A DNA stretch of 64,000 bases from Bacillota bacterium (GTDB lineage: Bacteria > Bacillota > Clostridia > Clostridiales > Clostridiaceae), in contig JAJBWD010000222.1 in the NCBI GenBank assembly GCA_032907345.1, positions 1,550 to 65,549 of the forward strand. The letters run 5' to 3'. The notes under the pieces are model-generated. The model was not told the origin of the DNA. It saw only the letters and a program-made list of their open reading frames with translations, and made no database searches. Within the stretch, counting starts at the first letter, position 1, and each line of letters starts with the position of its first letter. A program made the position numbers and the translations under genes. Positions 53,363 to 56,714 of this stretch are shown piece by piece.

Positions 53363-54874
53363 TTATGCAGTACGGATTAGCGACAGTTCTTCGATGCCAT
53401 AACTATTTCCTTGCATAACGATATAGGCTGCGTTCATAGGAATATTAGAAGAATCGAGAGTTCCAAAAGCAAAATAATCCTCTGCACTATCTTTTATGTT
53501 ATCAGCGGAAACCGTCTGAATCGCATTTTTATTTTTGTCGTAAAATCCGATATAGGAATATTGCGAACAAGAAAACGTAAATGTCATTGAAGAATTGATT
53601 TCCGTATAATCTGTCACATAATTCCACTGCTCAGATGAGACTATAGTGCCATCCGTATTAATGGCATACCCTGTTAATACATCATTATAATCAATTAATT
53701 GTGTATTAAGTGGAATATTAGCTGGCTCGTACCAAGTTACACCATCAAGCTGTGCGCTCGTTACTGTCTTATTGTTGTATGTTGTTGGTACGGTTGCGGT
53801 AATTGCGTTGCTGATAAATGTGGAATCATAATAGGCGGTTATGCTTGCGGTTGTGGTGTCCTCAAACTCAAACAGGATAGTGTGCTGAGTTGCAGACGGA
53901 GTTCCGCCTCCACTGACACTAACAACAGCACTTGCATAATTAGTCACATCATGTGTGCCATTTGTCATAATATTAATTGAGCCTGTTGGAGTAATCCCAC
54001 TTGATGGGACATTAACGGTTACAGATGAATAGCCATCTGCGGAATCATCTGAAGAAATATATGTCCCATTTATAGTAACAGTTTTATTTATTAACGTTTT
54101 GTCTACCAACATTGTTTGCATAAAAGCGGTAATTTGAGGAGTATAAAAAAGTCGATAGCCTGCTTCGTTTGGATGAATACCATCTCCATTTAATGTATAT
54201 GCAGTTCTAAGAGAATCAACATATCTAAGCGGCGGGGCAATGGTATTAAGATCAAGATATGGAATTCCCCATTTCTCACAGCACGCCTTTGCAATCCCGT
54301 AATAAGAATTTGCTCCATCCGTTGATTCGAACCCGCTATAGCACTTGTGGATAAATATATAACCAATCTTCGCTGTTGGGAATCTTGCGATTGCGGATTT
54401 TAACATTGTTTCAAATGCGCCTGCGAAAGTAGAATCATCAAGTGTCGCTGTATATCCCTCTGAAATCGTTCCAAGGGGCACCGATAAATCGCAGTCATTA
54501 ACACCACCCTCAAAAAGAACATAATCTGCATCTGAACGCATATCAGATACACTTCCGCTAATGCAGTGATGACCACTAACGTTTGTAATTGTTCCACCAC
54601 TCATACCAACATTTTGGACAGTCATGTTGTTGTTTGTACCAATCTGCGCAACGTATCCACCATTTGCATCGGGAGCATGACAAATACTATCTCCGTTAAA
54701 TGATGCAATTTTACCACTCAAAGGATTAATTGTATTACTACCTGTTCCAAGTACTCTTTCACCTGTTCTTAAATATCCATATTTCCCTGTTGGGATATCA
54801 GCAGATGATTCTATACCAGTAGTAGAAAGATCAATTTTAGTTATACCGTCAATTGTGATTTTATTTATTGGCAT
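53363..54874 (-). CDS. tail fibre/spike with SGNH(GDSL)-hydrolase domain
   Basis: N-anchor MPINKITIDGITKIDLS. Motifs FNGDSICH, GGVNDC and DGIHPN. C-terminal modules are shared with neighbouring genes. Confidence 0.7.
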   Translation of the reverse strand: MPINKITIDGITKIDLSTTGIESSADIPTGKYGYLRTGERVLGTGSNTINPLSGKIASFNGDSICHAPDANGGYVAQIGTNNNMTVQNVGMSGGTITNVSGHHCISGSVSDMRSDADYVLFEGGVNDCDLSVPLGTISEGYTATLDDSTFAGAFETMLKSAIARFPTAKIGYIFIHKCYSGFESTDGANSYYGIAKACCEKWGIPYLDLNTIAPPLRYVDSLRTAYTLNGDGIHPNEAGYRLFYTPQITAFMQTMLVDKTLINKTVTINGTYISSDDSADGYSSVTVNVPSSGITPTGSINIMTNGTHDVTNYASAVVSVSGGGTPSATQHTILFEFEDTTTASITAYYDSTFISNAITATVPTTYNNKTVTSAQLDGVTWYEPANIPLNTQLIDYNDVLTGYAINTDGTIVSSEQWNYVTDYTEINSSMTFTFSCSQYSYIGFYDKNKNAIQTVSADNIKDSAEDYFAFGTLDSSNIPMNAAYIVMQGNSYGIEELSLIRTA

Positions 54875-56115
54875 TATGAATTCACCTGCCTTTCAATTTT
54901 TATTGTGTGGGTAGGGTCACCACCATCACGAAGCAAGAATCTAAGTCCCCACTCATTTTTATATGCGCAGAATGGCAAACCTGTCCCATCATCCGTTTCA
55001 TCCCAGATATTAACATTACCAAAGTATACCGCTCCCCATTGAGGATGCACTTGTGATTCTGCTGTTATATACGCTGTTCCATCAATAGTTATACGGAATA
55101 TCTCGCCTGTAGTCAATTCCATATCGACAAGATCTTCAATAATAGCATTATTACCGCTATCATAAAATTCTACGTTTCCATCATAAACAGTTATATAATT
55201 ACCACTTGGGGTAGGTGCAGGTGTATAGCTGTACCACTCCACTCCATCAAGCTATGCAGATGTTACTGTCTTATTATTATGTGTGGTTGGTATTGTTGAT
55301 GTAATAGCCGTCCCCATAATCGCATCATCGTAATAAACATAGACAATTTCTGAGGTTTCATCTTCATACTCAAAATACAGTGTATGACGTGTTGCAGATG
55401 GAGTGGAACTTGAGGCAGAAGCTATAACAAGTTCTGTGCCATATGTATTTGAAACTTCCGTCATTGACGCCCCGCCCTGCACATTAACGATCACTTCCGA
55501 GTATCCATCAGCGGAATCATCCTCGGCGTCATATGTACCATTAAGAGTAATTGTTTTTGTAGTAAGAATTGCAGAACTACCACCTCCACCAGTTCCAATA
55601 GTTGATAATTCATAATTATATGTAATACCTTCTGCAAAACGATATGCTGCGGAGTTTGAAATAGTGTCAATAGTCAATGTTCCATTAGAATATGATGCAT
55701 GAGTATTTACCGTATCAGATTCGTTGTAGCCTGTAATGTCACGAATAAACCAACTTGATTCATTTACACTTCCACTAGAACCGTCTTGTGCTTGATATAA
55801 TACTACATCTTTGATAATTGTAAGTATAGTGACGCCACGTAAAGACACATCTCCTGATAAATCACCATATAGATGGATTAAATCTGGCTCAAAATTACAT
55901 GGTATCTGCAATACTGTAGTTCCATTTCCTGTAACTGTGCCAGTAACTGTTTGACCAGAAGAGCCACTACTACCTGATGCAGTTCCCGCAGTTTTCGTAC
56001 CATTGGCGGCATAAAAATATTTTCCACTTGCAACATCCGTGGCGACAGCTGTTGTATCGGAAATATCCATAAGGGTAGAACCGTCTATTACAACTTTATT
56101 ATATATAGTTGGCAT
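54874..56115 (-). CDS. tail fibre protein, TAG at 55252-54
   Basis: N-anchor MPTIYNKVVIDGSTLMDISDT. ...NNKTVTSA[TAG]LDGVEWYSY aligns with ...NNKTVTSAQLDGVTWYEP in 53363..54874. Confidence 0.7.
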
Positions 56116-56129
56116 TTTAATTCACCCCC

Positions 56130-56714
56130 TTACGCTGTGCGGATTAATGATAATCCGTTGTCTTCTATTAATATAACGTATGTAGTAATACGAATATATT
56201 TTGCATTAGATGGAATTCTTGCAGGCGTAAGTGTTCCATGTGATGCATCATATTCATCTATAGTATCTGCGTATGCATCATTTCTAAAACCACTAATATA
56301 AGTTTTAGAACTGTCATAAAAAGCTGAATCCCACCATCTATAACCTGCATATGTAAAAGTCATAGATGGATCAATTTCTGTATAGTCAGATACCAAACCA
56401 GCTTCTTGAGCTATTTCCTCCCCGTTATCACCATCAATGATATATCCTTGTTTACAGTCCGCAAGTTTAATCAACTATGTATTAAGCGGAATACCACCTG
56501 ATGGGGTTGGAGTAGGCGTAGGAGTCTGACCAGTTGTAATAACACATGTAGTACCAGTTGCATTAGCTACGTCTGTGATTGTTACAGAACCACTGCTCGT
56601 AACATCGGTGATGACTAAATCAGCTTCCATCCACTTCCCACTTGTTAAAAGTGTTCTGGTTGTATTATTTATAGTTGTTAAAGTAGAACCCTTATATGTA
56701 ACTGTTGAACTCAT
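56130..56714 (-). CDS. tail fibre protein, TAG at 56475-77
   Basis: ...GGIPLNT[TAG]LIKLAD... aligns with ...ANIPLNTQLIDYN... Shares the C-terminus ...LSLIRTA. Confidence 0.65.

What the first reader, a model, noticed from the sequence alone, without database searches (positions are those of the whole stretch)
53363..56714. Paralogous tail-fibre modules show directly that in-frame TAG stands for Gln
Three neighbouring fibre genes share duplicated modules. Where 53363..54874 reads ...TTYNNKTVTSAQLDGVTWYEP..., its paralog reads ...TTHNNKTVTSA[TAG 55252-54]LDGVEWYSY... in the same frame. Where the first reads ...ANIPLNTQLIDYN...YTEINSSMTFT...LSLIRTA, the third reads ...GGIPLNT[TAG 56475-77]LIKLAD...YTEIDPSMTFT...LSLIRTA. 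In both cases the TAG sits exactly opposite a Gln and homology continues after it. The same read-through joins adjacent track ORFs in frame at 49677, 50105, 50502, 51188, 52279, 57869 and 59691. TAA and TGA remain stops.
Basis: seen in the sequence. Interest (0 to 1): 0.75.

Follow-up and report, generated by a model that had tools for sequence, protein, structure and literature searches.

The report
Phage amber codon read as glutamate

Summary
On the minus strand, fibre genes B (54874..56115) and C (56130..56714) each carry one in-frame TAG, at 55252-54 and 56475-77. Homology to paralog A (53363..54874) runs across both, and all seven other listed joins are in-frame TAGs. TAA and TGA are the only stops. 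The window encodes one tRNA with anticodon CUA (43944..44016).

TAG is a sense codon, but most likely for Glu, not Gln.
- In four gene families with homologs that are TAG-free or only distantly related, 30 TAG columns give Glu a posterior near 1. ln-likelihoods relative to Glu are Lys -14.5 and Gln -25.1, and 37 of 41 sense-codon controls decode correctly.
- TAG sits in conserved Glu motifs: window 'IxPxDY' against 'IEPEDY' in homologs.
- TAG most often swaps with GAA in close relatives.
- The tRNA(CUA) has the body of tRNA-Glu(UUC) genes and gave no tRNA-Gln match.

The two paralog columns showing Gln are real but are a small sample. One of them is CAG against TAG, a single transition.

Twenty-six early ORFs behind sigma-70-type promoters contain no TAG. 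A sigma factor gene has 10 and a lysis-like gene pair has 7 and 8. This fits a tRNA-gated code switch. No searched paper reports TAG to Glu in phages. Proteomic confirmation is needed.

The parts
53363..54874 (-). Fibre gene A, 503 aa, no TAG. It has an N-terminal anchor motif, a GDSL/SGNH esterase domain, and the modules shared with fibres B and C.
   Evidence: phrog_5240 tail fiber 5e-52. PF13472 2.7e-15.
54874..56115 (-). Fibre gene B, 413 aa, with one in-frame TAG at 55252-55254 (aa288).
   Evidence: A-B BLASTP E=2e-25 across the TAG. Homologs in L061 and L071 span the column without interruption and carry S there.
56130..56714 (-). Fibre gene C, 194 aa, with one in-frame TAG at 56475-56477 (aa80).
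   Evidence: A-C BLASTP E=8e-19; the alignment begins 5 residues before the TAG.
56711..58156 (-). Fibre gene D, 481 aa, with one in-frame TAG at 57869-57871 (aa96). It shares the N-terminal anchor motif with A, B and 58186..58770.
49590..52467 (-). Five further late genes with in-frame TAGs: 49677, 50105, 50502, 51188, and four in 51967..52467 (52279, 52216, 52039, 52024).
   Evidence: The TAG column of 50954..51718 is E in 5 of 7 homologs.
59442..63998 (-). Large tail/host-adsorption protein, more than 1518 aa and running off the window, with one TAG at 59691-59693.
43944..44016 (+). Suppressor tRNA with anticodon CUA and a tRNA-Glu-type body. It is the only UAG reader found in the window.
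   Evidence: ARAGORN. Rfam tRNA 53.4 bits. The longest matches with a feature annotated under them are tRNA-Glu. Alignment A3. The same body pattern otherwise hits only tRNA-Glu(UUC) genes. Two compensatory T-stem pair changes in relative L100.
29755..30510 (+). GH114 glycoside hydrolase gene with 7 TAGs, five of them at columns where Glu is the clear majority residue.
30523..32271 (+). Gene for a CW_7 cell-wall-binding plus metallo-beta-lactamase-fold protein, with 8 TAGs.
262..1374 (-). Phage sigma factor gene with 10 TAGs.
   Evidence: phrog_5767 4.6e-49. Glu is the commonest residue in 7 of 10 TAG columns among 62 homologs. Cultured Enterococcus phage VRE9_2 has E at 6 of 10.
24147..24872 (-). 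Conserved gene of unknown function with 8 TAGs.
   Evidence: Among 70 homologs below 57% identity, E is the commonest residue in 6 of 8 TAG columns.
7173..23764 (+). Early region with 25 sigma-70-type promoters (a 26th lies at 40868), each followed by a small ORF free of TAG.
37709..37785 (+). Ordinary tRNA-Glu(CUC) of the phage, with a different body type from the suppressor.
46045..46117 (+). tRNA-Gln(UUG) of the phage. It is 63% identical to the suppressor and lacks the suppressor's extra D-loop bases and 4-nt variable loop.

Best explanation
The window comes from a phage whose close relatives are assembled on contigs of about 133-146 kb. Its nearest cultured relatives, found by sigma-factor homology, infect Bacillota. 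UAG is a sense codon in its middle and late genes.

Shown:
- In-frame TAGs lie inside conserved genes, including three of the four tail-fibre paralogs.
- TAA and TGA are the only terminators.
- The genome carries one tRNA gene with anticodon CUA.
- TAG positions coincide with conserved Glu positions in homologs.
- The tRNA(CUA) shares its acceptor stem, D-arm, anticodon stem, 4-nt variable loop and A73 with tRNA-Glu(UUC) genes.

Inferred:
- A host glutamyl-tRNA synthetase charges this tRNA with Glu, so UAG is decoded as glutamate. Many Bacillota have a non-discriminating GluRS that tolerates change at anticodon position 36, and many lack GlnRS (textbook knowledge, not tested here).
- GatCAB would not convert the Glu to Gln, because the tRNA lacks the U1-A72 pair of tRNA-Gln and has the enlarged D-loop typical of tRNA-Glu.
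- The early genes lie behind host-type promoters and contain no TAG, so the host can translate them directly. The sigma factor (10 TAGs), the GH114 and CW_7-MBL lysis-like pair (7 and 8 TAGs) and the structural genes (0-4 TAGs) can be completed only once the tRNA(CUA) has accumulated. This would make the code change a timing gate.
For: 1. HMM-emission test in the style of Codetta. I built the HMMs from homologs that are TAG-free (GH114, MBL) or more distant (below 57% identity for 24147..24872; full-length representative-cluster hits for the sigma factor). Thirty TAG columns give Glu a posterior near 1.0. ln-likelihoods relative to Glu are Lys -14.5, Ala -23.6, Asp -24.6, Gln -25.1 and Ser -25.3. 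Of the sense-codon controls, 37 of 41 decode correctly. GAA and GAG give Glu with posterior near 1; CAA and CAG give only ambiguous K/Q/E calls (per family).

2. Motifs. Window GH114 reads 'LVIxPxDYTNKxI', 'SISDxRSYY' and 'SKLxDW' where TAG-free homologs read 'IEPEDYT..EI', 'SDER.YY' and 'LEDW'. Relatives L002 and L005 have TAG where the window has Glu and all 50 references have E.

3. Cultured reference. The sigma factor of standard-code Enterococcus phage VRE9_2 has E at 6 of 10 TAG columns.

4. Codon swaps against close relatives. Of 26 variable TAG positions, 8 pair with Glu (GAA 7, GAG 1), 4 with Gln, 3 with Ser and 2 with Tyr. GAA is two mutations away from TAG, so mutational proximity does not explain its excess.

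5. tRNA. The longest BLAST matches with a feature annotated under them are tRNA-Glu: Lactobacillus prophage Lj928 (79% over 63 nt, E=2e-6), Enterococcus phiSHEF13 and Streptomyces pSt2308. There is no tRNA-Gln hit. The body pattern finds only tRNA-Glu(UUC) genes plus the CUA tRNAs of recoded relatives. Relative L100 has two compensated T-stem pairs.

6. Composition. In the MBL protein, E=11, Q=15 and TAG=8, against a homolog mean of about 21 E and 17 Q.

7. Timing. The 26 promoter-proximal early ORFs have no TAG and end in TAA or TGA.
Against: - The two fibre paralog columns show Gln opposite TAG (CAG and CAA).
- One TAG in relative L005 sits at a column that is 81% Gln.
- Several TAG columns are Lys-, Ala-, Tyr- or Ser-dominated.
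- Charging was not measured. From memory, amber suppressors are prone to mischarging by GlnRS in E. coli, so a GlnRS-bearing host could insert Gln or a mixture.
- Only 64 kb of the genome is visible, so a second suppressor tRNA or an aaRS gene could lie outside the window.
- The host is inferred, not known.
- The database homologs of the 24147..24872 and sigma-factor families were not checked for in-frame TAG and may include recoded proteins translated with Q by convention. This would bias towards Gln, not Glu.
Confidence: 0.84

Rival explanations
1. Genetic code 15, the first reader's view: TAG is decoded as glutamine, as in crAss-like, Lak and phAss-1 phages, with GlnRS charging the suppressor.
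For: - Both fibre paralog columns show Gln opposite TAG.
- CAG against TAG in the A/B pair is a single transition.
- One conserved-Gln column carries TAG in relative L005.
- Published phage cases are TAG to Gln (PMC9523058).
- From memory, U35-containing amber suppressors are readily glutaminylated in E. coli.
Against: - Thirty TAG columns favour Glu over Gln by 25 ln units, while true Gln codons behave quite differently in the same test.
- TAG replaces near-invariant Glu residues in GH114, the sigma factor and the 24147 family.
- The tRNA(CUA) has no tRNA-Gln features or matches.
- Under this reading the Q content would exceed, and the E content fall short of, homolog means.
Confidence: 0.07
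2. Ambiguous decoding: the tRNA(CUA) is charged with both Glu and Gln, or partly transamidated, so TAG gives a Glu/Gln mixture.
For: - A minority of TAG columns, including the two fibre columns, are Gln-like.
- Glu-tRNA to Gln-tRNA conversion exists in bacteria that lack GlnRS (textbook knowledge).
Against: - TAG sits at near-invariant Glu positions, which suggests the phage relies on Glu.
- The tRNA has G1-U72 rather than the U1-A72 pair that GatCAB uses, and it has an enlarged D-loop (read with textbook knowledge).
Confidence: 0.06
3. Programmed partial read-through in the single-TAG fibre genes: TAG terminates part of the time, giving short and long fibre isoforms.
For: - In fibres B and C the TAG lies beside Thr/Pro-rich linker sequence at a module boundary.
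- Competition between a suppressor tRNA and RF1 is never fully one-sided (general knowledge).
Against: - Genes with 7-10 TAGs need efficient decoding.
- Fibre B relatives have an ordinary sense codon at the column and uninterrupted ORFs.
- No gene in the late block ends in TAG.
Confidence: 0.02
4. The TAGs are nonsense mutations in decaying paralogs, or assembly errors.
For: Paralogous fibre copies can decay.
Against: - TAGs are conserved in position across independent assemblies (L002-L005, L017).
- There are none of the in-frame TAA or TGA codons that decay would also produce.
- A matching tRNA(CUA) is present.
Confidence: 0.01

Closest known systems
TAG-recoded ('alternatively coded') gut phages using genetic code 15: crAss-like, Lak, Agate, phAss-1 (Borges et al., bioRxiv 10.1101/2021.08.26.457843; Peters et al., PMC9523058; Babkin et al., PMC10607447)
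   Same: - In-frame TAG in lysis-like, regulatory and structural genes.
- A phage-encoded tRNA(CUA) inside a large tRNA array.
- TAA and TGA kept as stops.
- Early genes free of the recoded codon.
- A host that presumably uses the standard code.
   Different: In those phages the alignments, tRNA isotype predictions and, for crAss-like phages, proteomics give Gln. Borges et al. state that only TAG to Gln and TGA to Trp were observed. Here the conserved columns and the tRNA body point to Glu.
Isotype survey of phage suppressor tRNAs (Kienbeck et al. 2024, PMC10879173)
   Same: It uses the tRNA body, not the anticodon, to predict the inserted amino acid.
   Different: Their 180 suppressor tRNAs were predicted as Gln 69%, Trp 19%, Ile 10% and Tyr 1%, with no Glu type reported. 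No theta ribozyme or other Rfam family was found next to the tRNA here.
Eukaryotic codes with UAG = Glu (NCBI tables 30 Peritrich and 31 Blastocrithidia; recalled from memory)
   Same: UAG is decoded as glutamate by a tRNA-Glu-derived suppressor.
   Different: Those codes also reassign UAA and are nuclear codes of whole organisms. Here TAA is the main stop codon, and the change belongs to a virus acting inside a host that presumably uses the standard code.
Large Bacillota siphoviruses: Enterococcus phages VRE9_2, EF1, EF5 and H1, Brevibacillus phage Sundance, Geobacillus virus E3
   Same: They have a homologous phage sigma factor (39% identity for the Enterococcus phages). Their genome sizes (134-142 kb) are similar to the relatives' contigs.
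   Different: The sigma-factor genes checked are uninterrupted standard-code ORFs annotated as such. There was no DNA-level or other protein match in the phage collection.

Membership tests
Stop-codon-recoded (amber-reassigned) phages | In-frame TAG inside conserved genes, with homology continuing downstream | tested here: met
Stop-codon-recoded (amber-reassigned) phages | The other two stop codons still terminate, and no gene ends in TAG | tested here: met
   16 of 16 late genes and 26 of 26 early ORFs end in TAA or TGA, with no internal TAA or TGA.
Stop-codon-recoded (amber-reassigned) phages | Phage-encoded suppressor tRNA with anticodon CUA | tested here: met
   43944..44016. Conserved in relatives L095 and L100, with compensatory changes in L100.
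Stop-codon-recoded (amber-reassigned) phages | The recoded codon is absent from early genes and enriched in late, lysis or regulatory genes | tested here: met
   0 TAGs in 26 promoter-proximal ORFs, against 7-10 in the sigma factor, GH114 and MBL genes. Expression timing itself is inferred.
Genetic code 15 (TAG = Gln) | TAG columns align with Gln in homologs that use the standard code | tested here: not met
   Glu posterior near 1; Gln is 25 ln units worse over 30 columns. Only the 2 paralog columns and 1 column in a relative are Gln.
Genetic code 15 (TAG = Gln) | Suppressor tRNA of Gln isotype | tested here: not met
   Matches annotated tRNA-Glu genes and no tRNA-Gln gene. tRNAscan-SE isotype models were not available.
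Genetic code 15 (TAG = Gln) | Peptides with Gln at TAG positions | not testable with these tools
   Needs LC-MS/MS.
UAR = Glu codes (NCBI tables 30 and 31) | UAA reassigned together with UAG | tested here: not met
   TAA terminates 13 of 16 late genes and 24 of 26 early ORFs.
Programmed stop-codon read-through | A single leaky stop per gene that yields two isoforms, while ordinary termination at that codon occurs elsewhere | tested here: not met
   Up to 10 TAGs per gene, and no gene terminates at TAG.

The most novel reading that the evidence does not exclude
A clade of rumen- and gut-associated phages, with contigs of about 133-146 kb and probably infecting Bacillota, uses a genetic code not reported for any virus or prokaryote in the literature I could search: UAG = glutamate. 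The code is implemented by a tRNA-Glu-derived amber suppressor charged by the host GluRS, with TAA and TGA kept as stops. The codon would gate a phage sigma factor and lysis-like genes. Public databases currently translate these proteins with Gln at every such position.
Probability: 0.8. Interest if true: 0.78.

Novelty: new variant of a known kind. Interest (0 to 1): 0.72.

Why it matters
Amber recoding in phages is known. In the papers I searched, however, the assigned residue is always Gln where one is named; one paper left it unresolved as X. Annotation pipelines apply code 15.

If this clade reads UAG as Glu, several things follow:
1. A new code variant would need its own translation table. 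Existing database proteins of this clade carry Q by convention at TAG positions, some of them near-invariant Glu positions. I saw this directly: database protein P0001 has Q at all 8 TAG positions.
2. It would show that phages can use GluRS, not only GlnRS or TrpRS, to change the code. It suggests the outcome depends on the host's aminoacylation system, for example hosts that lack GlnRS.
3. It offers a natural Glu-inserting amber suppressor for genetic-code engineering.
4. It is a warning that a few paralog or ortholog columns, especially CAG against TAG, are not enough to assign a recoded codon.

Tried and rejected
- Megablast of the fibre block against GenBank phages found no match. tblastn of the 24147 protein also found none.
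- The search for related loci with fibre D gave only one distant locus.
- A concatenated query of five proteins to the search for homologous proteins failed, returning 1 hit, and wasted a search.
I worked around this by querying a TAG-free 115-aa stretch and aligning the full-length hits.
- Comparing the suppressor with the window's own tRNAs alone was misleading: it is nearest to tRNA-Trp (68%) and then tRNA-Gln (63%). The external search resolved this.
- The minimum-free-energy fold of the tRNA is not a cloverleaf. I relied on ARAGORN and Rfam instead.
- The genome-contig scan for the tRNA body gave a single hit, in a Lactobacillus MAG, so it added no host information.
- Cluster look-ups gave no names.
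- I considered TGA or TAA recoding for the ORF-poor stretch at 5.8-16.7 kb. I rejected it because the region is an array of promoters with small standard-code ORFs.
- I considered that Glu-like TAG columns could arise under a Gln reading, through GAG to TAG mutations. I rejected this because it would need repeated E-to-Q replacement at near-invariant Glu sites, and because GAA rather than GAG is the usual counterpart.
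Full report
**1. The observation**

The genes of the finding lie on the minus strand. The gene ends at 53363, 54874 and 56130 are TAA, and 56711 is TGA.

With TAG masked as X:
- Fibre A (53363..54874, 503 aa, no TAG) aligns with fibre B (54874..56115) at E=2e-25, 51% identity over 130 aa. The alignment runs across the TAG (B aa288 opposite A Q375). After it come 'LDGVEWY' in B and 'LDGVTWY' in A.
- Fibre A aligns with fibre C (56130..56714) at E=8e-19, 42% identity over 120 aa. 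The alignment begins with five identical residues, 'IPLNT', before the TAG (C aa80 opposite A Q392).
- A, B, D and 58186..58770 also share an N-terminal anchor motif of about 45 aa.

Fibre A carries a GDSL/SGNH esterase domain and matches a tail-fibre PHROG.

None of the 16 late-block genes has an internal TAA or TGA. Each ends in TAA or TGA. Apart from the 5'-truncated large gene, each starts at an ATG, mostly behind a Shine-Dalgarno-like motif.

Fibre B homologs in two other viral contigs span the TAG column as uninterrupted ORFs.

Gene 51967..52467 has four, and several genes elsewhere have 7-10.

**2. What the window is**

It is a phage segment.
- A 32-tRNA array lies on the + strand at 35.8-46.8 kb. 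It contains a full-length ROOL RNA and exactly one tRNA with anticodon CUA.
- Close relatives sit on contigs of 133-146 kb from gut and rumen-type metagenomes, and they carry in-frame TAGs at largely the same positions.
- The database proteins of these relatives show Q at those positions only because they were translated that way. Their DNA has TAG.
- The nearest cultured relatives, found through the sigma-factor gene, are 134-142 kb phages of Enterococcus, Brevibacillus and Geobacillus.
- The strong AGGAGG-type ribosome-binding sites and the CW_7 wall-binding domain also fit a Gram-positive host. This is an inference.

**3. Which amino acid?**

The two fibre columns say Gln. When I aligned the 8-TAG gene 30523..32271 with 79 distant homologs, Gln was rare in the TAG columns and acidic residues were common. 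Counted as Gln, the TAGs would also leave the protein short of Glu and over-supplied with Gln relative to its homologs. I followed this up in four ways.

(a) *Motifs.* I fetched 76 related loci. Most homologs in them are TAG-free. The neighbouring GH114 gene (29755..30510) reads 'LVIxPxDYTNKxI', 'SISDxRSYY' and 'SKLxDW', where 50 TAG-free homologs read 'IEPEDYT..EI', 'SDER.YY' and 'LEDW'. Where relatives L002 and L005 have TAG, the window has Glu and all 50 references have E.

(b) *A test in the style of Codetta.* I built profile HMMs only from homologs that are TAG-free or clearly more distant, aligned the window protein to them, and summed the log emission probabilities over all columns of a given codon. 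In total 30 TAG columns from four families were scored: GH114 and the 8-TAG gene together gave 12, 24147..24872 gave 8, and the sigma factor 262..1374 gave 10.
- TAG gives Glu with a posterior near 1. ln-likelihoods relative to Glu are Lys -14.5, Ala -23.6, Asp -24.6, Gln -25.1 and Ser -25.3.
- The same pipeline decodes 37 of 41 sense codons correctly.
- GAA and GAG give Glu just as sharply. The true Gln codons CAA and CAG give only ambiguous K/Q/E calls.
- So TAG behaves like a Glu codon and unlike a Gln codon.
- Any Q written by convention in database homologs biases this test against Glu.
- Against the annotated sigma factor of cultured Enterococcus phage VRE9_2, 6 of 10 TAG columns are E. 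One example is 'CSKCGxIKLAHN' against 'CSRCKEIKLANN'.

(c) *Codon swaps.* Between the window and its close relatives, 26 TAG positions vary. The commonest counterpart is Glu, at 8 positions (7 of them GAA), ahead of Gln at 4. GAA is two substitutions from TAG, so selection on the amino acid explains the excess better than mutational proximity does.

(d) *The tRNA.*
- Searched against GenBank phages, the tRNA(CUA) finds its longest matches in annotated tRNA-Glu genes. It finds no tRNA-Gln gene.
- Aligned with them, it shares:
  - the acceptor stem (GGCTCG../..CGnGCTA)
  - the D-arm (GGTCAAnnGGTTTAAGAC)
  - the anticodon stem (CTGGT/ACCAG)
  - the 4-nt variable loop
  - discriminator A73
- The anticodon loops differ: CTCTAAA in the suppressor against TTTTCAT in the Lj928 tRNA-Glu, with anticodons CUA and UUC.
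- A degenerate pattern of this body retrieves only tRNA-Glu(UUC) genes and the CUA tRNAs of recoded relatives.
- One relative has two fully compensated T-stem pair changes, which shows selection on the fold.

**4. Weighing the fibre columns**

With standard BLOSUM62 substitution frequencies (my own estimate, not a tool run), a Gln opposite a true Gln is about three times likelier than a Gln opposite a Glu. Two columns therefore favour Gln by about 2.4 ln units, against 25 in the other direction.

One fibre column is CAG against TAG, a single transition. The other is CAA against TAG. The fibre B homologs carry Ser at that column. The fibre columns are real, but they are a small and unrepresentative sample. 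The code is a property of the whole genome, and only one UAG-reading tRNA is visible.

**5. Mechanism**

Shown:
- TAG is a sense codon.
- There is a tRNA(CUA) gene with a tRNA-Glu-type body.
- TAG sits at conserved Glu positions.

Inferred from established knowledge of aminoacylation:
- A host GluRS charges the tRNA. Non-discriminating GluRS enzymes, common in bacteria that lack GlnRS, tolerate change at anticodon position 36.
- GatCAB would not amidate the product, because the tRNA lacks the U1-A72 pair of tRNA-Gln and has the enlarged D-loop of tRNA-Glu.

Timing:
- The + strand between 7.2 and 23.7 kb holds 25 near-consensus sigma-70-type promoters, and one more lies at 40868. Each is followed by a small ORF, nearly all with a ribosome-binding site.
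- None of the 26 ORFs contains TAG. They end in TAA (24) or TGA (2).
- TAG is densest in a phage sigma factor (10) and in the GH114 and CW_7-MBL pair (7 and 8). It is sparse in structural genes (0-4).
- This fits the published idea that recoding delays late and lysis functions until the suppressor tRNA is made. Expression timing was not measured here.

**6. Comparison with what is known**

- Amber recoding in phages is well described, and TAG to Gln has proteomic support in crAss-like phages (PMC9523058).
- Borges et al. state that only TAG to Gln and TGA to Trp were observed.
- phAss-1 was assigned Gln from alignments and tRNAscan.
- A survey of 180 phage suppressor tRNAs predicted Gln, Trp, Ile and Tyr isotypes but no Glu.
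- Al-Shayeb et al. left the residue unresolved as 'X'.
- Six full-text searches found no report of TAG to Glu in a phage or prokaryote.
- UAG = Glu exists in some eukaryotic nuclear codes, but there UAA is reassigned as well. That feature is not met here.

I therefore class this as a new variant of a known kind. The library does not cover subscription journals fully, and no experiment supports the assignment yet.

**7. Verdict**

- Observation: confirmed.
- Interpretation: partly supported. Read-through is supported; Gln is not, and Glu is most likely.
- Confidence: about 0.97 that TAG is a sense codon here, and about 0.84 for the full statement including Glu.
- The decisive test is mass spectrometry of peptides spanning TAG sites, with deamidation controls, together with in vitro charging of the tRNA.

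Noticed in passing
window 40265..40855 (+): A full-length ROOL RNA (RF03087, 280 bits) lies inside the 32-tRNA array. A sigma-70-type promoter and a 122-aa ORF follow directly at 40868..41306.
   Followed up: partly
window 7173..23764 (+), plus 40868: Twenty-six near-consensus promoters (TTGACW-N15-19-TAWAAT) lie on the + strand. Many have an extended -10 (TGATATAAT) and a G/C hairpin overlapping the -35. Each is followed by a small ORF, nearly all with a ribosome-binding site; 22 of the ORFs are 32-154 aa. All are free of TAG. This explains the apparent lack of long ORFs at 5.8-16.7 kb.
   Followed up: yes
window 11529, 13889, 14683, 16925, 22086 (+), and related families D7, D12 and D13: A second conserved repeat of about 94 nt reads '..ATCCCGTAATTTGTGCA..CTATTGCATTTTT..TTATAATAATAATTGTCAAGAGGA'. 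It is distinct from the sigma-70-type promoters. It may be another promoter class or a regulatory site, perhaps for the phage sigma factor.
   Followed up: no
window 262..1374 (-): This is a phage sigma factor gene (phrog_5767) with 10 in-frame TAGs and a C-terminal zinc-finger-like CxxC...CxxC motif. Its translation would depend on the suppressor tRNA.
   Followed up: partly
window 36053..36124 (+): This tRNA has a tRNA-Gln-like body (U1-A72) and an 8-nt anticodon loop, UUUCUGAC. ARAGORN reports a 4-base anticodon. Two further odd ARAGORN calls are at 46126..46209 and 46464..46539, and two tRNA hits seen only by Rfam are at 39342..39415 and 42002..42066.
   Followed up: no
window 47847..49394 (+): A 515-aa protein with DUF2828, DUF7788 and vWA domains (phrog_850 'RNA-binding protein', resembling Ro60/TROVE proteins) lies directly after the tRNA/ROOL array. 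Homologs are widespread in large Bacillota phages, at about 41% identity to Bacillus phages.
   Followed up: partly
L100 2186..2257 (IMGVR_UViG_3300001487_000194): A relative with a syntenic tRNA array and the Glu-type tRNA(CUA) also carries a tRNA with anticodon UCA, which ARAGORN labels 'SeC'. It may be a second, opal suppressor.
   Followed up: no
L090 about 6900..6975 (IMGVR_UViG_3300033146_003955, 158,812 bp): An unrelated phage contig has a tRNA(CUA) whose 5' half ('GTCCTATTCGTCTAGTGG') resembles, as far as I recall it, the tRNA-Glu body type of Gram-negative bacteria. Glu-type amber suppressors may occur in other phage lineages.
   Followed up: no
window 24001..26500: GC skew is extreme here (-0.52; only 23 G in 500 nt at 24001-24500). 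The stretch coincides with minus-strand, Glu/Lys-rich, TAG-dense genes, including 26085..26408, which has 13 TAGs in 108 codons in a charged low-complexity tail.
   Followed up: partly
window 6410..6681 (+): Five tandem-like copies of a 45-nt unit reading '..TTGTTAAATTTTTAACACA', each with an internal palindrome, lie upstream of the promoter array. They may be operator or origin-like repeats.
   Followed up: no
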